Source of the DNA: a virus
Virus genome (UHGV): UHGV-0120264
DNA length: 12,149 nucleotides
Reading direction: 5' to 3' (one strand)
Below, piece after piece: positions 2,756 to 8,221 of this stretch; positions within the stretch are counted from its first letter, which is position 1, and the number at the start of each line of letters is the position of its first letter. The translations under genes were made by a program, and so were the position numbers. The notes beneath the pieces are model-generated. The model was not told the DNA's origin. It saw nothing but the letters and a program-made list of their open reading frames with translations, and did not search any database.

Positions 2756-3410
2756 TGCAGAGCGCCTGATGTTCTCCCGTGAGCTAAACCGCGATATGGG
2801 CATCAGTTACTTCCTGAACCCAGACGATTACCGCAAAGCAGGCCGCAATCTGGTAGATGGTGACATCTTCGGTCGCGTTCCTGAAGAAGCGTATCGCAAC
2901 GGTACTATTCAGCGTCAGATTGCTGGCTTTGATGAAATTCTTCGTTCACCGAAACTTCCGGCAGTTACCAAGTCAACCGCTACTGGTGTAACTGTTTCTG
3001 GTGCGCAGAAGTTTAAGCCGCAGGCATACACCCTTGATACCGATGGTAACAAAGAGAACGTCGACAACCGTGTTGCAACGGTGACCGTATCCTCCGCCAC
3101 CGGATTTAAGCGCGGCGACAAAATAAGCTTCACTGGTGTGAAGTTCCTGTCTCAGATGGCGAAGAATGTGCTGACTGATGACGCGACTTTCTCAATCACC
3201 CGTGTGATCGATAGTACTCACATCGAAATCACGCCGAAGCCGATTGCGCTGGATGACGCGTCACTGACAAAAGAAGAGAAGGCTTACGCTAACGTAAACA
3301 CCTCTCTTGCTGATACCACTCCGGTAAACGTTCTGAACGTGGCAACAACCACCGCTAACGTGTTCTGGGCTGATGACTCAATCCGTCTGCTATCTCAGCC
3401 GATCCCGGTA
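2703..3410 (+). pseudogene. Internal fragment of a P22-type major coat protein gene (roughly residues 130-365 of a 430-aa coat); lacks N- and C-terminal parts
   Basis: Frame-0 translation (...[26 protein letters not shown]...[18 protein letters not shown]...[18 protein letters not shown]) aligns with P22 gp5 as I remember it. The frame opens at 2664 after a stop, and similarity ends at SQPIP, right at the RBS of the next gene. Confidence 0.75.
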
Positions 3411-3421
3411 AGGGGTAATCA

Positions 3422-4786
3422 ATGGCTACTTGGCAACAGGGTATTAATTCTGGTGGTTTTCTGGCTGGCATCGGTACGCAAAATGAGAATGCGCCAAAGG
3501 CAAGCGACATTAACGCAACGCTTGGTCTGATCCGCGAAAACAATGAACTGGCTCGCTCAGGTGCAAATAACGTTGGTCTGACCGCGTTACGTGGTCTGGC
3601 TGGAGTTGCTGATATTTACAATCAGGAACAGCAACAGAAAGCGATTAGTGCGTTCAATAAGGTTCACGCTGATGCATGGGCTTCTGGTGATCCATCGGGA
3701 CTATTTAAGTTTGCCCAGGAAAATCCAGCGTTTGTTGCACAGGCACAACAGGCGTTTTCCGGTCTTAATGAGCAGCAACGCAACGATATGGGCGATTTAG
3801 CCATGAGGGCTAACGTCGCTCTTTCTCAGGGACCGGAAGCCTACAGTAAATTCATTACTGACAACAAGGACAGGTTAAATCGCGTGGGCGCGAATGCTGA
3901 CTGGATGATTCAGACAGGTATTCAGAATCCAGAGCAGCTATCACACATGCTGACTACTATGTCTCTCGGTGCACTTGGGCCAGAAAAGGCGTTTGCTGTT
4001 CAGGACAAGATGGCTGGTCGTGAGATTGACCGAGGCAGACTGGCAGAGACAATCCGCAGCAATCAGGCTGGCGAGGCGCTAACAGCGCGTGGTCAGAATA
4101 TCACGATGCGCGGTCAGGATTTATCGATGCAGAGAGCATCAATGAAAGGGTCGGTTGGGAATAATGAGCGTACAGTTCAGTTAGCAGATGGCAGAACTGT
4201 AACGGTAGGCGGGAAGCTTCACGGCGCTGGGGCTAATGCGTTCTACGAAGGTATCGACAACGAGGGGAATATGGTTCGCGTCCCTGCTGGCTCTATTGCC
4301 GCTCCGGCTACATCGGCAGCAAGCGCGCAGAATTACGCAATGAAGAAAGATCTTGATGCAATTTCTGGTGCATCAATTGACGATCTTGGCTTCATGACTG
4401 GCATTACAGGCTCTTCAGGTTCTCCTGCTCTTGGTGCAGATATTCGTAGCCGTGCATCTGGTGGTGATCAGAGGAAACTATACAACGCTGCACAGCGAAT
4501 CCAAGGAAAGATGCAGAATCAGGGCATTGCAGCAGCCAGAGACATGGGGGCATCCGGTATCAACACCGTTGCAGAAGCAAAGATGTATTTTCAAGGTATG
4601 CCACAGGTTGATTTCTCAAGCCCTGAAGCACTGCAACAATCAATGCGCGACATTCAGCAATATACCGACAATTACAACCAGCAATATAACGTTAATGTTG
4701 GTAAATCTCAGCGGCAGCAATCTCAACCTACACAGGTATCACAGCCAGCAGCCAGCAGTAATTTTTCTTCACTATGGGGTGATTAA
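3422..4786 (+). CDS. Putative ejection (DNA-injection) protein, gp20-like by synteny
   Basis: 454-aa ORF with AAGGGG RBS about 7 nt upstream. Gln/Ala/Gly-rich and low-complexity, sitting between the coat and tailspike genes where P22-like phages encode gp7-gp20-gp16. Assignment rests on synteny and composition, not on recognised sequence identity. Confidence 0.5.
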
Positions 4787-6945
4787 TGGCTAAAGCATGG
4801 AAAGATGTTATCGCCTCTCCACAGTATCAGGCGTTAACTGAAGAACAGAAAGCACAGGCTCAAGCGCAATATTTTGATGAGGTTGTTGCCCCTAAGGCTG
4901 GTGACAAATGGGCTGAAGCAAGAGATCAGTTTTATGCAGCATACCCTCCGCCTCAGCAGCAGAAAGAAGAACCATCATTGATGCAACAAGCTGGCGATTG
5001 GCTCACAGGTGGTCAAAGTGCAGGGCAAATTGCAGAGCAGGCTGGTCGTGGTCTGGTAAACATACCATTTGACGTATTGCAGGGTGGCGCAAGTCTGATT
5101 AATGCAATCAGCCAGGGGCTTGGTGGCCCCAAGGTTTTGGATGATGTTTATCGCCCTGTCGATCGACCTACAGACCCTTACGCGCAAGCCGGTGAAACAA
5201 TTGGTGGGTATCTCCTGCCAATTGGCACAGCGGCAAAAGTTGCTGGAGCGCCAGCAAAGCTCGCTGGAGATATCGGTTCCGCAGGAAACATGATTGCAGG
5301 TTCTCTTGCTGATGCTGCAAATCAGGAGGGCGACTTTGCACAAAATGCTGCCATTAACGGTGGTATCAATATTGGTGCTCAAGGCGTTCTTTCAGGTGTC
5401 GGGCGCGTTATTGCTCCAAGGGTTTCACAGGCTCTTGGTGGTGCAGCACTGAATTCTGCTAATGATGTTTCCAGGATGGCAAAGTCAGGTGCTGGGCGTC
5501 AGTCAATTGCCAGTCAGGCCGCTAATGTGTCCGAAGATGTAGCAAAAGCGGCTGAGTCTGCTGGAATTGATATAAACGCATTAACACCAGGAATGCGATC
5601 TGGAAGTCGTGGAATTGCACAAGCCGAAGGCGCATTGGCATCAACACCAGGAATTGTTCAGGACGCCCATCAGGCAGCATTTAACGAAATATCATCAAAG
5701 TTAAGTCGAAACCTTGATGAATTTGGGGCCGCATCTGGAACGGCATCAGAAAAAAGTGCGGCTATAAAACAAAGGATTCTTCAAAATCTTGATCAGATGA
5801 AGGATGCCGAGCGCGCGGCATGGGATGACGTGCGGTCAACAATGCCAAATCAAAAAGCAAGAATGCTAAATGGTAATGCCGTTATTCAGGCAGAGCGATC
5901 TGCCGGCATACCGCTTACTCCTGAAATGAAACAGTTTGTTCAGGCAAACAATCAAGGTGGAGTAACATTTGATGGCATGAAAGCATGGAGAGCGAAATTT
6001 GCTGATGCGGAGCAAAAATATAAGCGTAGCGGAGAGGCAAATGCGGCAAGGAGAGCAGGGGAAATACGCCGGGCAATTACTGATGATATGCGCACAATGG
6101 CGGAAAACGGCGGATTTCTTGATGACTGGCAAAAAGCTAATGATCTGTCTAAAGCGAGGTTATCAGCACAAGAGAGTGCAGAGTCTGTTTTCGGACGTGA
6201 TTTGGCAACAGATGCACTGATTACGAATGGAGTAAAATCCCTTCAATCATCGTCAGCTAAAGGTCTTAATGGTCCTGCTGGGTTCCATTCTATGATCCGC
6301 GCGCTGCCAGAATCAGAGCGTGTTCCTGCTATATCATCAATGTTGCAAGATGCTATCTCGCATGGTGTACGTGGTGGCAAAGCTGATGCAGCAGGAATTA
6401 ACCATATCGCAGAGATACTCACTCCACAAAATGTAAAAGCCATTAGCCGATATTCCTCAGAACTTGGAAGAATTGCTGATGCATATGGCACTCTTGCAAG
6501 AGCAGCAGTGAAACCTCAGCAGTATATTGAAAGAACAGGGAGAACTGCCAATGTACTACGCGATCTGGATGCCGGTTTATCCAACGTCACATCAACAGTG
6601 TTAAATGCAATTGCCAACTCAACATCAGGTGCCATTGTTGGTGGAGCAGGAGGGGGCATTGCAGGCGCTGCCGCAGGTGCTTTAGTTGGCGCCGGGTTAA
6701 AAGGCGCTGTATCTAAAATTGCCACCACGCGTAGCGGTCGATATGCGATAGAGAAAGCAGTTCAGGAAGCCACGAAAGCAGTAAGAGCTGGCGGAAGTAA
6801 AGAAGCATTAGCGGCGGCGGAACGCAGATTTATGGCAAATAAAGCCGCCGTAAAAGCAATACGTGATGCAGTTGGAAACGAAGAGTTCAATCGCTTAGCG
6901 AGGGCTGGCATTGTAGCGTCGCTAAGCGGAATAGCACAGGAGTAA
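4786..6945 (+). CDS. Putative ejection (DNA-injection) protein, gp16-like by synteny
   Basis: 719-aa ORF whose ATG overlaps the upstream stop (TAATG), suggesting translational coupling. Low-complexity, with a Gly/Ala-rich hydrophobic segment near the C-terminus. Assignment by synteny and size. Confidence 0.5.
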
Positions 6946-7269
6946 TTAATCATCCATGGATGGATTGAGCTTATCTCGTGTTGATGTGGCGATTTGCCCT
7001 ACATTCCTAAGCCAAGATTTCAAATCCTTGATATTGTCATTGATTTCATGAATATCTTCTTTTTTTAGTCTGTTAATATTATTCTCAATAATTTCAATGG
7101 ATTGCTCAATATCAGATATAGTGAATGATAGTTTGTTCTTCTCATCTTTTATTGAGTTTTTAAGTGCTTCGTTCTCAGTCTTGAGGTCAGATATCTTTTG
7201 TTTTAAAGATGCCAGTTGGTACTGAACCACAATGAGTGCGATAGCTATCACGATAACTGTTGTATACAC
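6946..7269 (-). CDS. Small membrane-anchored coiled-coil protein (N-terminal TM helix plus heptad-like coiled coil); accessory gene of unknown function
   Basis: 107 aa from a GTG start with a strong AAGGAGG RBS 5 nt upstream (minus strand). The N-terminus YTTVIVIAIALIVVQY is hydrophobic and the rest is K/E/N/I-rich. The region is visibly AT-rich compared with neighbours. Confidence 0.6.
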   Translation of the reverse strand: MYTTVIVIAIALIVVQYQLASLKQKISDLKTENEALKNSIKDEKNKLSFTISDIEQSIEIIENNINRLKKEDIHEINDNIKDLKSWLRNVGQIATSTRDKLNPSMDD

Positions 7270-7387
7270 ACCAACCTCCTTAGTTTTGAGCAGGATACCA
7301 TGAAAAAAGTAAACATCTTTTGCCTACTTCACATTTGAATGATTTGTCATTAGGATGTTTCCGTTTTTTTTAAATATGGAAATTGAT

Positions 7388-7807
7388 ATGAAGAGGATTA
7401 TTAGCGTCGTTGCTGGCGTTATCATGTTATCTGGGTGCGCAACTATTGTTGGTGATGAAACGCAACTTGTGCAAGTGAACAGCAATCCTTCTGGCGCGAG
7501 CTTTAAGGTAAAAGATGAGTCAGGTGTGATTGTTGCGCAAGGTAAGACCCCACAAGGTGTAACGCTCGCCAAGTCAGATGGTAGCTATTTTGGCAAAAAG
7601 AGCTACCAGATCACTATGGAGAAGGATGGGTATGAACCAGTTACCCTGCCAATCAAAGCCAATGCTAATGGTTGGTATATTGGTGGGAACCTTGTGTTTG
7701 GTGGGTTAATTGGTTGGCTTGCTGTAGATCCATTTAATGGTGGAATGTATACCTTGAAGCCAAAAGAGGCAAATGCATCACTTATACCGTCCACAAAGCA
7801 AGACTAA
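7388..7807 (+). CDS. Putative lipoprotein (139 aa) with a C-terminal glycine-rich hydrophobic segment
   Basis: MKRIISVVAGVIMLSGC is a signal peptide with lipobox. The C-terminal WYIGGNLVFGGLIGWLAV is glycine-zipper-like. I take the ATG at 7388 rather than the track's 7355 because the signal peptide begins there. Divergent from the 6946..7269 gene. Confidence 0.65.
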   Translation: MKRIISVVAGVIMLSGCATIVGDETQLVQVNSNPSGASFKVKDESGVIVAQGKTPQGVTLAKSDGSYFGKKSYQITMEKDGYEPVTLPIKANANGWYIGGNLVFGGLIGWLAVDPFNGGMYTLKPKEANASLIPSTKQD

Positions 7808-7814
7808 TAAATGG

Positions 7815-7840
7815 AACCCACCATCAGGTGGGTTTTTTGT
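7815..7840. terminator. Bidirectional rho-independent terminator between the convergent lipoprotein and mnt genes
   Basis: AACCCACC-ATCA-GGTGGGTT hairpin followed by TTTTTTG on the plus strand, with an A-rich tract on the other side. The mnt stop codon lies in the loop. Confidence 0.7.
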
Positions 7841-8075
7841 ACAAATCTTTCAGCGTATCAAACACCATCTTCTTAACAAGTTCGGACTGCTCATCAGCGA
7901 TTCGTTCCGCATCGTCTCGATAGCCTGAAATTTTGGATGGCTTTGATACAGCATCAGTCACTATCTGAACTAATTCTGAATTAAGAGAGCGGCAATTGGA
8001 TTTGGCTCGCTGTTTTAGTTTTTCCTTTAATTCGTAAGGTAGCCGCAGATTAAATTGCGGGTCATCTCTTCCCAT
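7824..8075 (-). CDS. mnt: Mnt-like ribbon-helix-helix repressor (P22 immI-type)
   Basis: 83-aa product MGRDDPQFNLRLPYELKEKLKQRAKSNCRSLNSELVQIVTDAVSKPSKISGYRDDAERIADEQSELVKKMVFDTLKDLYKKPT is near-colinear with P22 Mnt as I recall it. GAGG lies 8 nt upstream of the ATG. Confidence 0.85.
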   Translation of the reverse strand: MGRDDPQFNLRLPYELKEKLKQRAKSNCRSLNSELVQIVTDAVSKPSKISGYRDDAERIADEQSELVKKMVFDTLKDLYKKPT

Positions 8076-8138
8076 TCTTGATGCCTCGCTTTTGTGAGTG
8101 GATCGGCATCTTATTATCTGCTGGTTGCATCCTCAATA

Positions 8139-8153
8139 AGACCACTGTGGTCT
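8139..8153. promoter_or_regulatory. Candidate Mnt operator: perfect 15-bp palindrome AGACCACTGTGGTCT, with a second CACTGTGG core at 8176-8183
   Basis: Perfect odd-centred palindrome read directly, 64-78 bp upstream of the mnt start. It resembles the P22 Omnt palindrome (AGGTCCACGGTGGACCT) in form and partly in sequence. Confidence 0.55.
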
Positions 8154-8221
8154 CTTTGTTTGATTAATAATGCATCACTGTGGCAATGCTGCAGCGATTC
8201 CTTTTATCTGGAGCAGATTAA

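What the first reader, a model, noticed from the sequence alone, without database searches (positions are those of the whole stretch)
6946..7807. Divergent two-gene envelope module (TM coiled-coil protein and lipoprotein) in the sieA position
Between the gp16-like gene and mnt, where P22 carries sieA, there is a divergently transcribed pair: a 107-aa N-terminally anchored coiled-coil protein with a strong RBS, and a 139-aa lipoprotein with a glycine-zipper-like C-terminus. The segment 6946-7350 is conspicuously AT-rich, and the pair ends in a clean bidirectional terminator. An inner-membrane coiled-coil protein plus an outer-membrane lipoprotein echoes spanin or exclusion systems, but the divergent orientation and lipoprotein size do not fit a canonical spanin. 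I read it as a candidate superinfection-exclusion or envelope-defence module.
Basis: partly seen in the sequence, partly recalled or inferred. Interest (0 to 1): 0.6.

Follow-up and report, generated by a model that had tools for sequence, protein, structure and literature searches.

The report
Two independent prophage envelope-protein add-on genes
Two small envelope-protein genes sit back to back in the known variable region of a decayed P22-like prophage; they are phage ε34 genes 14 and 15, they move independently rather than as a pair, and the first one sits behind the same start signals as the known phage-exclusion gene sieA.

Summary
ORF 6946-7269(-) is a 107-aa membrane-anchored single-helix protein. 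ORF 7388-7807(+) is a 139-aa lipoprotein. Both are under purifying selection and are 99-100% identical to Salmonella phage ε34 gp14 (an HkcB homologue) and gp15. Both were published in 2008 as genes of unknown function in the hypervariable "ant moron" between gene 16 and the tailspike gene.

The "two-gene module" reading is not supported. Only 1 of 7 sequenced phages that carry either gene has both. Only 10 of 5426 complete E. coli genomes have the pair, against 72 with hkcB and 123 with the lipoprotein gene. The lipoprotein pairs with five unrelated left-hand genes. Its homologues also occur singly in tail-gene moron slots of unrelated siphophage prophages and in ordinary chromosomal sites.

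New here: the ~50 nt upstream of hkcB, including the Shine-Dalgarno sequence and the GTG start, is 96% identical to the leader of P22 sieA. In 75 viral contigs this leader precedes 11 unrelated families. All have an early hydrophobic segment, and only SieA has a known function. The lipoprotein cassette replaced hkcC and left a 12-codon stub.

Best reading: two separate morons. HkcB is a plausible SieA-like exclusion protein. The lipoprotein is a captured bacterial PEGA-fold, probably outer-membrane, lipoprotein of unknown role. No function has been tested.

The parts
6946..7269 (-). hkcB (ε34 gene 14 homologue). A 107-aa protein with an N-terminal transmembrane segment (residues 2-17) followed by one long helix and a conserved C-terminal motif, SWLxNVGQIATSTRDKLNPSMDD. 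Its stop codon abuts the gene 16 stop codon with 0 nt between them.
   Evidence: ORF and translation. phrog_5962 E 1.4e-58. 99% identical to ε34 gp14, 97% to CUS-3 HkcB, 56% to HK620 HkcB. Alignments A2/A3. AF2 single helix 2-101. dN/dS 0.13-0.3. 0-nt spacer to gene 16 in 19/19 loci.
7266..7316 (-). Conserved sieA-type leader. It holds the GTG start (7269-7267), SD AAGGAGG (7281-7275) and a candidate extended -10, TGgTATCCT (7300-7292). It is shared with P22 sieA, HK620 hkcB, SEN22 hkcB and an unannotated 62-aa ORF in E. coli YY76-1. Homology to those loci stops at the start codon.
   Evidence: blastn: 96% identity to the P22 region just upstream of sieA. Alignment A4. 75 IMG/VR contigs carry the exact 36-nt leader followed by 11 unrelated ORF families. 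The extended -10 is my reading of the sequence and is not a tool call.
7300..7338 (+). A 12-codon remnant of hkcC (MKKVNIFCLLHI*). This is the scar left when the lipoprotein cassette replaced hkcC.
   Evidence: HK620 and P22 hkcC start MKKVNIGNVP... at the same place relative to the leader. The same 12-codon remnant precedes the lipoprotein in all 27 lipoprotein-bearing loci that share the leader.
7328..7356 (+). Promoter-like site, TTCACA-17-TAGGAT, upstream of the lipoprotein gene. It is a consensus match only.
   Evidence: 9 of 12 matches; the number of sites is not above shuffle expectation. The Gally and 720R6 cassette homology begins at 7343, so only the -10 part travels with the gene.
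7388..7807 (+). Lipoprotein gene (ε34 gene 15 homologue), 139 aa. Signal peptide residues 1-16, lipobox LSGC, Cys17, Ala at +2. A PEGA/transthyretin-like β-sandwich spans residues ~25-95 (7460-7672). A hyper-conserved C-terminal motif, NGWYIGGNxxFGGLIGWLxVDPFNGGMYTLxP, spans residues 94-125 (7667-7762).
7814..7840 (.). Hairpin terminator (tMNT) shared by the rightward lipoprotein gene and leftward mnt. It overlaps the 3' end of mnt.
   Evidence: Annotated as a Rho-independent terminator in ε34. Matches HK620 'tMNT' at 92.5%.
7824..8075 (-). mnt repressor gene. Context: right-hand boundary of the variable interval.
   Evidence: Pfam Arc 4e-21 and Repressor_Mnt 2e-18.
4786..6945 (+). gp16-type DNA-transfer (ejection) protein gene of the HK620/CUS-3/ε34 lineage. 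Context: left-hand boundary, always abutted by hkcB.
   Evidence: phrog_770 E 3.5e-230. Cross-tabulation of gp16 C-terminal type against slot-1 family.

Best explanation
These are two independent single-gene morons lying back to back in a two-slot hub of the "ant moron" of a degraded P22-like (Lederbergvirus) prophage. They are not a two-component system.

Slot 1 (leftward, tail to tail with gene 16) holds hkcB.
- It is a small bitopic inner-membrane protein: an N-terminal anchor plus a ~85-residue helix.
- It sits behind the very same leader, Shine-Dalgarno sequence and GTG start that drive sieA in P22.
- I infer that it is expressed from the prophage like sieA.
- I infer that it acts at the inner membrane on incoming P22-like phages, as a functional alternative to SieA. 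The likeliest action is interference with the gp16/gp20/gp7 DNA-delivery conduit of the HK620/CUS-3/ε34 gp16 lineage, to which it is strictly linked.

Slot 2 (rightward) originally held hkcC.
- Here hkcC was replaced, leaving a 12-codon stub, by a cassette encoding a 122-aa mature lipoprotein.
- The lipoprotein has a PEGA/transthyretin-like β-sandwich and an invariant glycine-rich C-terminal segment.
- It probably goes to the outer membrane (Ala at +2).
- It belongs to a large bacterial lipoprotein family that temperate phages have captured repeatedly. It acts alone, as a lysogenic-conversion factor at the outer membrane.
- My best guess is that it masks or alters an envelope component used by phages. 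A host-fitness role is nearly as likely.

What is shown and what is inferred:
- Shown: gene identity, independence of the two genes, the shared leader, cassette exchange, fold, and purifying selection.
- Inferred: expression in lysogens, topology, localisation, and any exclusion activity.
For: Identity
- 98.8% nt identity over 1 kb to ε34 genes 14-16. The region is described as an 'ant moron' of unknown function in PMC2629481.

Independence of the two genes
- Sequenced phages: HkcB is in ε34, CUS-3, SEN22, HK620 and 611R6. The lipoprotein is in ε34, Gally and 720R6. Only ε34 has both.
- E. coli complete genomes: the pair is in 10, hkcB (this type) in 72, and the lipoprotein in 123, out of 5426.
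- In 76 loci sharing the leader, the lipoprotein sits opposite 5 different slot-1 families. HK620-type HkcB is never opposite it (0 of 7).
- A Salmonella locus has HkcB at 60% identity but the lipoprotein at ~98%.
- A Leclercia HkcB faces an unrelated lipoprotein.

The lipoprotein occurs alone elsewhere
- Between the tail chaperone and tape-measure genes in HK97-like E. coli prophages. This is the slot of the HK97 gp15 moron.
- In the same slot in Proteus.
- Between gpI and gpJ in Pseudescherichia.
- Near Q and the antirepressor in Actinobacillus.
- In non-prophage sites in Kosakonia and Zoogloea.
- The siphophage copy shows the GC dip typical of morons.

Link to SieA
- The P22 sieA slot and strand are the same.
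- The leader is 96% identical, with homology ending at the GTG.
- There are 11 families behind the leader, all with an early hydrophobic segment. Only SieA is annotated.
- SieA is an experimentally proven inner-membrane exclusion protein that targets gp16/gp20 (PMC10883804).
- HkcB is found only with one gp16 C-terminal lineage, always with a 0-nt spacer.

Persistence and selection
- Both ORFs are intact in a prophage whose coat gene is truncated.
- Both are under purifying selection.

Outer-membrane link
- Ala at +2.
- One family member is fused to an OmpA-type β-barrel.
Against: - No experiment on either protein exists in the searched literature.
- Neither protein matches any PADLOC defence model meaningfully.
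- HkcB has no sequence or architectural similarity to SieA: one TM against three.
- Position-based inference is weak, because this interval also holds non-envelope genes (hkcC, and two CUS-3 genes of unknown function).
- In the leader-defined IMG/VR set, ε34-type HkcB is with the lipoprotein in 12 of 13 loci. This could hint at co-selection, although physical linkage and clonal sampling explain it as well.
- The lipoprotein family has ordinary chromosomal members, so its native role may have nothing to do with phages.
- HkcB topology rests only on the positive-inside rule.
- The hkcB promoter is only my reading of the sequence.
Confidence: 0.6

Rival explanations
1. An obligate two-component envelope module. 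An inner-membrane coiled-coil protein and an outer-membrane lipoprotein contact each other across the periplasm and together exclude phage or defend the envelope.
For: The two genes are adjacent and divergent and share a 118-bp control region. In the leader-defined viral contigs, ε34-type HkcB is next to the lipoprotein in 12 of 13 loci. A ~85-residue helix could span much of the periplasm if it faced outward.
Against: - Each gene is common without the other: CUS-3, SEN22 and HK620 on one side, Gally, 720R6 and YY76-1 on the other; 10 against 72 and 123 E. coli genomes.
- The lipoprotein pairs with 5 unrelated slot-1 proteins.
- The lipoprotein stands alone in siphophage prophages and in chromosomes.
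- Allele combinations are shuffled.
- HkcB's uncharged N-tail and conserved K23/K25 after the TM predict an N-out/C-in topology, which puts the helix in the cytoplasm (inference).
Confidence: 0.07
2. The lipoprotein is a host-fitness or virulence conversion factor (for example serum or stress resistance, adhesion, or outer-membrane homeostasis) with no anti-phage role. HkcB may likewise serve the host or the prophage's own regulation.
For: - The family is large and mostly bacterial (5136 cluster representatives), with chromosomal non-prophage members.
- The mature protein is under extreme purifying selection (dN/dS 0.02-0.06 with dS up to 0.34). This fits a conserved host partner rather than an arms race.
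- There is no PADLOC match.
- Lambdoid morons such as bor and lom are of this kind (established knowledge).
Against: It has been captured repeatedly into slots that hold known exclusion genes in the type phages: the P22 sieA region and the HK97 gp15 slot. There is no similarity to the Bor, Lom or TraT families in Pfam or PHROGs.
Confidence: 0.3
3. The leftward transcription unit works mainly at the RNA level. Because hkcB abuts gene 16 with no terminator, its transcript reads antisense into the 3' end of gene 16. It would exclude closely related phages in the way the BTP1 asRNA STnc6030 does.
For: STnc6030 of the P22-like prophage BTP1 is antisense to the 3' end of the gene-16 homologue and gives self-specific exclusion (PMC7067206). 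Here there is a 0-nt spacer, and no convincing minus-strand terminator before a weak candidate at ~6735-6721. HkcB is strictly linked to one gp16 lineage.
Against: The ORF is clearly selected as a protein: dN/dS 0.13-0.3, a conserved TM and C-terminal motif, and a constant 107-109 aa length at 53% identity. For P22 sieA the protein is necessary and sufficient with only 22 bp of downstream DNA. An RNA role would therefore be additional at most.
Confidence: 0.08
4. A non-canonical spanin (Rz/Rz1-like) pair that takes part in lysis.
For: Weak PHROG matches of HkcB to Rz-like spanins (E 1e-3 to 4e-2). The composition is an inner-membrane coiled coil plus a lipoprotein.
Against: - The matches sit among dozens of equally weak coiled-coil hits, such as SMC, Rad50 and BicD.
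- The genes are divergent.
- They lie far from any lysis cassette.
- The lipoprotein is a 122-aa β-sandwich, not a short proline-rich o-spanin.
- ε34 has its own Rz/Rz1 (PMC2629481).
- Either gene is dispensable in related functional phages.
Confidence: 0.01

Closest known systems
Salmonella phage ε34 genes 14 and 15 (Villafane et al. 2008, PMC2629481)
   Same: The same two genes in the same arrangement. 98.8% nt identity over gene 16 end-14-15-mnt. gp15 is 100% and gp14 is 99% identical in protein.
   Different: Here they sit in a decayed E. coli prophage that lacks arc/ant and most head genes. In ε34 they are annotated only as conserved hypothetical proteins.
HkcB of coliphages HK620 and CUS-3
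   Same: The same family (phrog_5962), the same position abutting gene 16, and the same leader in HK620.
   Different: HK620 HkcB is 56% identical and faces hkcC, not the lipoprotein. CUS-3 hkcB has a different upstream region and lies at the end of a leftward gene string. No function is known for any of them.
P22 SieA (inner-membrane superinfection-exclusion protein; Leavitt et al. 2024, PMC10883804)
   Same: The same slot, the same strand, and 96% identity across the ~50-nt leader with its SD and GTG start. Both are small membrane proteins next to gene 16.
   Different: There is no sequence similarity (phrog_7745 against phrog_5962). SieA has three predicted TM segments and 164 aa, whereas HkcB has one TM plus a long helix. 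SieA travels with the P22-type gp16 C-terminus and HkcB with the HK620/CUS-3 type. Exclusion is proven for SieA and untested for HkcB.
HK97 gp15 moron (superinfection exclusion; Cumby et al. 2012, cited in PMC10883804)
   Same: A homologue of the lipoprotein (69% identical) occupies exactly the gp15 slot, between the tail-assembly chaperone and the tape-measure gene, in HK97-like E. coli prophages.
   Different: HK97 gp15 is a 62-aa protein unrelated in sequence to the lipoprotein. The similarity is positional only.
Exclusion lipoproteins Cor (φ80/N15) and Llp (T5), which block FhuA
   Same: Phage-encoded lipoproteins expressed to change the outer membrane. They are the mechanistic model for what the lipoprotein might do.
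PEGA domain (Pfam PF08308) / transthyretin-like β-sandwich proteins
   Different: The sequence score is below Pfam's gathering threshold (17.6 against 20.8 bits). The defining feature of this family is the invariant C-terminal NGWYIGGN...VDPFNGGMY segment, which Pfam does not model.

Membership tests
Moron (independently expressed insert in a phage operon, sensu Juhala/Hendrix) | Present in some and absent from other otherwise syntenic relatives | tested here: met
Moron (independently expressed insert in a phage operon, sensu Juhala/Hendrix) | Base composition differs from the flanking operon | tested here: met
   hkcB plus the spacer is 33.8% GC against 48.6% for gene 16. The siphophage copy is 38-46% GC against 55-61% in its flanks. 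The lipoprotein CDS in this window (44.5%) is not deviant.
Moron (independently expressed insert in a phage operon, sensu Juhala/Hendrix) | Own promoter and terminator | tested here: inconclusive
   The terminator hairpin is present but is the shared mnt terminator. The promoters are a consensus match and an extended -10 that I read in the leader. There is no transcript data.
SieA superinfection-exclusion family | Sequence homology to SieA types A-C / phrog_7745 | tested here: not met
   HkcB hits phrog_5962 only, while SieA hits phrog_7745. There is no detectable similarity.
SieA superinfection-exclusion family | Location between the gene 16 and gene 9 homologues of a P22-like prophage, leftward, behind the sieA leader | tested here: met
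SieA superinfection-exclusion family | Polytopic inner-membrane protein (three predicted TM segments) | tested here: not met
   HkcB has a single hydrophobic segment (residues 2-17) and then a continuous helix.
SieA superinfection-exclusion family | Blocks DNA injection by P22-like phages | not testable with these tools
   Needs plating, K+ efflux and DNA-entry assays.
Two-component spanin (Rz/Rz1) | Genes co-oriented (embedded, overlapped or adjacent) within the lysis cassette | tested here: not met
   The genes are divergent and lie between gene 16 and mnt. ε34 has separate Rz/Rz1 genes.
Two-component spanin (Rz/Rz1) | o-spanin is a short, proline-rich outer-membrane lipoprotein | tested here: not met
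   The mature protein is 122 aa with a confident β-sandwich domain.
Two-component spanin (Rz/Rz1) | i-spanin is type II (N-in, periplasmic coiled coil) | tested here: inconclusive
   There is no basic residue before the TM, and conserved K23/K25 follow it in all homologues. This favours N-out/C-in by the positive-inside rule. No topology predictor or experiment was available.
Bacterial lipoprotein (Lgt/LspA substrate) | Signal peptide with lipobox [LVI][ASTG][GA]C | tested here: met
   LSG-C17 is invariant across 38 homologues. A Pfam LPAM_1 hit occurs in 2 members.
Bacterial lipoprotein (Lgt/LspA substrate) | Outer-membrane sorting (no Asp at +2, E. coli rule) | tested here: met
   The +2 residue is Ala, invariant. 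Actual localisation is untested.
PEGA domain (PF08308) | Score at or above Pfam's gathering threshold | tested here: not met
   17.6 bits against 20.8. Only 4 of 38 family members match at E<=0.01.
PEGA domain (PF08308) | Transthyretin-like / carboxypeptidase-regulatory β-sandwich fold | tested here: met
Glycine-zipper membrane motifs (Pfam Gly-zipper families) | Match to a Gly-zipper model or a (G/A/S)xxxGxxxG run | tested here: not met
   No Pfam hit at E<=1 other than PEGA. There is only one GxxxG (G105-G109). KD hydropathy stays below 1.4 over 19 residues.
Cor / Llp receptor-blocking exclusion lipoproteins | Homology to the Cor or Llp families | tested here: not met
   Matches are to the signal peptide only.
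Known anti-phage defence systems (PADLOC-DB 2.0) | Significant match to a defence-protein model | tested here: not met
   The lipoprotein has no hit at E<=1. HkcB has only coiled-coil noise, E>=6e-4.

The most novel reading that the evidence does not exclude
The interval after gene 16 of P22-like phages would be a dedicated exchange hub for superinfection-exclusion genes. A conserved ~50-nt expression head (promoter element, SD and GTG) drives interchangeable envelope-protein cassettes that are swapped precisely at the start codon. SieA is the one characterised example. HkcB and about nine other families (phrog_8100, 2651, 7294, 21338, 21022, 19844, 10450 and others) would be new, mechanistically distinct blockers of the podophage DNA-delivery conduit, each matched to particular ejection-protein lineages. 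The back-to-back slot would carry a new outer-membrane-level exclusion lipoprotein, recruited from a large bacterial family of unknown function.
Probability: 0.25. Interest if true: 0.7.

Novelty: new member of a known kind. Interest (0 to 1): 0.4.

Why it matters
The genes themselves are already catalogued as hypotheticals in a known variable region, so the finding as stated is not a discovery.

What has value is the sharpened, testable hypothesis. hkcB and at least nine other unannotated small envelope proteins sit behind the same leader and start codon as sieA. If they exclude phages, this would multiply the known ways in which prophages block DNA delivery by short-tailed phages. It would also give genetic handles on the poorly understood gp7/gp20/gp16 trans-envelope conduit.

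The lipoprotein belongs to a bacterial family with more than 5000 clusters and no known function. Temperate phages of several types have captured it repeatedly. A phenotype in the phage setting would be a first clue to the role of the whole family.

Tried and rejected
- **Spanin reading.** Rejected on orientation, location, lipoprotein size and fold, and because the Rz-like PHROG hits are coiled-coil noise.
- **Known defence systems.** PADLOC gave nothing meaningful.
- **Cor-like exclusion lipoprotein.** The matches cover the signal peptide only.
- **Glycine zipper.** No Pfam support.
- **Solved-structure relatives by sequence.** Only a marginal CnaB-type hit, E 0.035.
- **Extra domains in long family members.** Only one informative case, an OmpA-barrel fusion.
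- **Plasmids.** The family is rare there and is not linked to conjugation.
- **Rfam.** No RNA family in the window.
- **Repeats in 6800-8400.** Nothing relevant.
- **Literature.** Accession numbers, hkcB, hkcC and PEGA-lipoprotein-prophage searches found no functional study beyond the ε34 genome paper.
- **Interaction test.** An AlphaFold-Multimer test of HkcB with the lipoprotein could not be run, because the tool takes one chain.
- **Promoters in siphophage copies.** The two-hexamer scan found no plus-strand promoter for the lipoprotein in those contexts.
Full report
**1. What is in the window**

The window matches an E. coli chromosome. The 1-kb region around the finding is 100% identical to strain EC24. 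The EC24 annotation places it in a P22-like prophage next to thrS.

The prophage is a remnant. It has an integrase (50-1258), a few early genes, and only a fragment of the coat gene (2769-3530, matching positions 157-327 of a 385-position major-head profile). After that come gp20- and gp16-type ejection genes, the two ORFs in question, mnt, a tailspike gene and an acyltransferase gene. There are no terminase or portal genes, and no arc or ant.

**2. Check of the observation**

- ORF A (6946-7269, minus strand) has 107 codons. It starts at a GTG preceded by AAGGAGG with a 5-nt spacing.
- ORF B (7388-7807, plus strand) has 139 codons and the lipobox LSG-C17.
- The segment 6946-7350 is 33.8% GC, against 44.1% for the window and 48.6% for gene 16.
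- A hairpin at 7814-7835 folds at -15.4 kcal/mol with a U-tract on the plus strand. On the minus strand it folds at -14.0 kcal/mol with a weaker tail.
- Neither ORF is a chance ORF. They match phrog_5962 (E 1e-58) and phrog_6823 (E 2e-86).
- Pairwise dN/dS is 0.13-0.3 for ORF A. It is 0.02-0.06 for ORF B, even where dS reaches 0.34.
- P22 carries sieA on the same strand immediately after gene 16.

Two refinements follow. The terminator is the known mnt terminator: it is annotated in ε34, it is 92.5% identical to 'tMNT' of HK620, and it overlaps the end of mnt. "Glycine-zipper-like" is a loose description, since no Pfam glycine-zipper model matches.

**3. Identity**

The 1-kb region is 98.8% identical to Salmonella phage ε34, covering genes 13 (end), 14, 15 and 16 (mnt). 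The lipoprotein is 100% identical and ORF A is 99% identical to ε34 gp15 and gp14.

The ε34 genome paper calls the interval between genes 16 and 9 the "ant moron". It notes ten types in sixteen genomes. It lists genes 14 and 15 as of unknown function. [quoted passage not shown] I found no later functional work.

**4. The two proteins**

*HkcB.* It has a hydrophobic segment at residues 2-17, then a single continuous predicted helix to residue 101 (pLDDT 80). It ends in a highly conserved tail, SWLxNVGQIATSTRDKLNPSMDD.

- Only 21 clusters were found among 5.8 billion proteins, all of them enterobacterial.
- All weak family hits (Rz-like spanins, DivIC/FtsL, SMC, Rad50, JetC and others) are generic coiled-coil matches far below the family cutoffs.
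- The N-tail has no basic residue in any homologue, and K23/K25 after the segment are conserved. By the positive-inside rule this favours N-out/C-in, which puts the helix in the cytoplasm, as in ZipA or YhcB. The comparison is from my own knowledge and the topology is an inference.

*The lipoprotein.* It has an invariant lipobox and Ala at +2, which is the outer-membrane sorting signal under the E. coli rule. Residues ~25-95 form a confidently predicted β-sandwich (pLDDT >90). The C-terminal segment NGWYIGGNxxFGGLIGWLxVDPFNGGMYTLxP is almost invariant but is modelled with low confidence.

- The Pfam PEGA score is below threshold.
- The family is large: 5136 representatives at E<=1e-3 among 1.84 billion 50%-identity cluster representatives. 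It reaches Betaproteobacteria, Acinetobacter and Pseudomonas.
- One member is fused to an OmpA-type β-barrel.

**5. The two genes are not a unit**

- *Sequenced phages.* HkcB occurs in ε34, CUS-3, SEN22, HK620 and 611R6. The lipoprotein occurs in ε34, Gally and 720R6. Only ε34 has both.
- *Complete E. coli genomes (5426).* This hkcB type is in 72 genomes, with 83 more showing diverged, partial (3'-end) hkcB matches. The lipoprotein gene is in 123. The adjacent pair is in 10.
- *Shuffled alleles.* A Salmonella locus combines a 60%-identical HkcB with a ~98%-identical lipoprotein.
- *Other partners.* A Leclercia HkcB (53% identical) faces an unrelated lipoprotein. In Gally the lipoprotein faces yet another unrelated lipoprotein. 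In YY76-1 the lipoprotein is the only annotated gene in the interval.
- *The lipoprotein alone in other phage types.* Homologues 69-77% identical sit singly inside tail-gene clusters of unrelated siphophage prophages.
  - Between the tail-assembly chaperone and the tape-measure gene in HK97-like E. coli prophages. This copy is indexed in 710 blocks of the contig collection, so it is common. In HK97 that slot holds the gp15 moron.
  - In the same slot in Proteus.
  - Between gpI and gpJ in Pseudescherichia.
  - The E. coli copy shows a GC dip to 38-46% within 55-61% flanks.
- *Further contexts.* An Actinobacillus copy lies between the Q antiterminator and an antirepressor. Kosakonia and Zoogloea copies lie in ordinary chromosomal neighbourhoods.

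So the lipoprotein is a bacterial gene family that temperate phages have captured several times as a stand-alone moron.

**6. The architecture of the locus, which is the new part**

blastn of the window against the related loci shows distinct mosaic boundaries.

- The hkcB block ends at ~7285-7303 (CUS-3, SEN22).
- The lipoprotein block begins at 7343 (Gally, 720R6).
- Window 7266-7316 is 96% identical to the P22 sequence immediately upstream of sieA.

The alignment shows one leader, ATGTT(T/A)ACTTTTTTCATGGTATCCTGCxCAAAACTAAGGAGGTTGGTGTG. It sits in front of ε34-type hkcB, HK620-type hkcB, P22 sieA and an unannotated 62-aa two-TM ORF in YY76-1. Similarity ends at the GTG.

On the opposite strand the leader contains the ATG of hkcC. 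P22 and HK620 have a full 121-aa hkcC there. The window has only 12 codons (7300-7338) before the lipoprotein cassette begins. The divergent layout is therefore inherited from the sieA/hkcC layout of P22. It is not a property of this pair.

I also read a possible extended -10 (TGgTATCCT, 7300-7292) about 22 nt upstream of the GTG. This is my inference only.

**7. Census of the leader**

An exact search for the 36-nt leader in IMG/VR returned 75 contigs. Adding the window gives 76 loci. The ORF that starts at the GTG falls into 11 unrelated families.

| Slot-1 family | Loci |
|---|---|
| ε34-type HkcB | 13 |
| HK620-type HkcB | 7 |
| Another TM + coiled-coil protein of 109 aa | 8 |
| SieA | 10 |
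| 129-aa protein with a signal peptide | 14 |
| 75-aa polytopic protein | 9 |
| 62-aa two-TM protein | 6 |
| 149-aa type-II protein | 3 |
| Three rarer families | 2 each |

Every family has an N-terminal or early hydrophobic segment. Each family with a PHROG match falls in its own PHROG, the 149-aa family matches none, and only SieA carries an annotation.

On the divergent side, 44 loci have full hkcC. Twenty-seven have the 12-codon stub plus the lipoprotein. These 27 lie opposite five different slot-1 families: HkcB-ε34 12, TMcc-109 5, SP-129 5, 2TM-62 3 and TM-75 2. Five loci have something else. HK620-type HkcB is never opposite the lipoprotein. The identical stub in all 27 indicates a single replacement of hkcC, followed by reshuffling through the shared leader.

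Clustering the C-terminal 150 residues of the convergent gp16 gave two results.

- HkcB of both types occurs only with the HK620/CUS-3/ε34 gp16 lineage (19 of 19), always with a 0-nt spacer.
- The P22-type gp16 end is found with five different slot-1 families, including SieA.

**8. How it most likely works**

*Shown:* two separately mobile genes under purifying selection, kept intact in a decaying prophage, with hkcB behind the sieA leader.

*Inferred for HkcB:* it is made in the lysogen like SieA. [quoted passage not shown] I therefore propose that HkcB is a membrane-anchored protein that interferes with DNA delivery by related podophages. I put this at about 35%.

*Inferred for the lipoprotein:* it is lipidated, sorted to the outer membrane and acts alone. 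Either it alters or masks an envelope component used by phages (about 25-30%), or it serves as a host-fitness factor (about 30%). Its near-invariance argues for a conserved host partner.

*A possible extra layer:* leftward transcripts must run antisense into the gene 16 3' end, because there is no spacer or terminator. This recalls the exclusion RNA STnc6030 of BTP1 (PMC7067206).

**9. Comparison with known systems, and novelty**

The locus is not a spanin, not a SieA homologue, not a Cor/Llp homologue and not in PADLOC (see the membership table). It is a member of the known class of prophage morons in the known ant-moron region, and the genes are already in databases as hypotheticals. That is why I file it as a new member of a known kind and not as a new kind.

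What I could not find described in the searchable literature is twofold: the start-codon-precise sharing of the sieA leader by many unrelated envelope-protein cassettes, and the recurrent capture of the PEGA-type lipoprotein into moron slots of different phage types. The library I could search is incomplete, so specialists may already know of this.

**10. Verdict**

- Observation: confirmed.
- Interpretation: partly supported. The slot and the envelope location are right. The "module" reading is wrong. The function is untested.
- Interest: moderate, 0.4. The finding is ordinary as stated, but it yields a clean and cheap experimental test for a set of candidate exclusion proteins.

Noticed in passing
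window 7266-7316; loci L031-L105: A ~50-nt leader (SD plus GTG start) shared with P22 sieA precedes 11 unrelated small envelope-protein families in 75 IMG/VR contigs, with homology breaking exactly at the start codon. Only SieA has a known function. The others are phrog_8100, 2651, 7294, 21338, 21022, 19844, 10450 and one family with no PHROG.
   Followed up: yes
window 7300-7338 (+): A 12-codon remnant of hkcC (MKKVNIFCLLHI*), left where the lipoprotein cassette replaced hkcC. The identical stub is present in all 27 lipoprotein-bearing loci that share the leader.
   Followed up: yes
L030 3315-3503 (-) (E. coli YY76-1, NZ_CP040927): An unannotated 62-aa ORF with two hydrophobic segments (phrog_21338) sits behind the sieA-type leader, in what RefSeq shows as a 324-bp gap between gene 16 and the lipoprotein gene.
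   Followed up: partly
window 6945/6946; L019, L021, L022, L031-L105: hkcB always abuts gene 16 stop to stop with 0 nt between. It is found only with the HK620/CUS-3/ε34-type gp16 C-terminus (19/19). The P22-type gp16 end carries five different slot-1 families. Whether this is physical linkage or functional matching is unresolved.
   Followed up: partly
window 6700-6946 (-): No convincing minus-strand terminator follows hkcB, so its transcript should read antisense into the 3' end of gene 16. This is reminiscent of the exclusion asRNA STnc6030 of the P22-like prophage BTP1 (PMC7067206).
   Followed up: partly
window 2769-3530 and the whole window: The prophage is a remnant. Only a fragment of the coat gene survives (profile positions 157-327 of 385) and it runs into the gp20 gene. 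There are no terminase, portal, arc or ant genes. From the coordinate offsets, strain EC24 appears to carry about 1.5 kb more between the integrase gene and gene 16 than this window does. I did not check this by alignment.
   Followed up: partly
window 8348-8500: The mechanical tailspike ORF starts at a TTG at 8348, but profile matches begin at residue 52 and RefSeq starts the gene at the equivalent of 8501. The 150 nt upstream lie within the most AT-rich stretch of the window (27-29% GC at 8200-8500). That stretch has an imperfect 21-nt direct repeat at 8233-8253 and 8291-8311.
   Followed up: no
L005, L007, L008 ~10260-11430: The HK97-like E. coli prophages that carry the lipoprotein homologue before the tape-measure gene also carry a porin gene (Porin_1/Porin_4) inserted between the gpM-like and gpL-like tail genes. 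This is a second envelope moron in the same tail cluster.
   Followed up: no
protein P0165 (365 aa): One relative of the lipoprotein is fused at its C-terminus to an OmpA-like transmembrane β-barrel (PF01389, E 2e-15). This supports outer-membrane association for the family.
   Followed up: no
L003 2391-2906 (-) (phage Gally); L021 3514-3918 (-) (Leclercia): Two further unrelated lipoproteins (171 aa and 134 aa) occupy the same gene 16-mnt interval in other P22-like genomes. This interval is rich in lipoproteins and small membrane proteins in general.
   Followed up: partly
L002 3393-4396 (-) (CUS-3 ECRS218_0008/0007): In CUS-3, hkcB is preceded in the same orientation by two overlapping genes of unknown function (139 and 199 aa) and two mnt-like genes. 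There hkcB looks like the last gene of a leftward operon and lacks the sieA-type leader.
   Followed up: no
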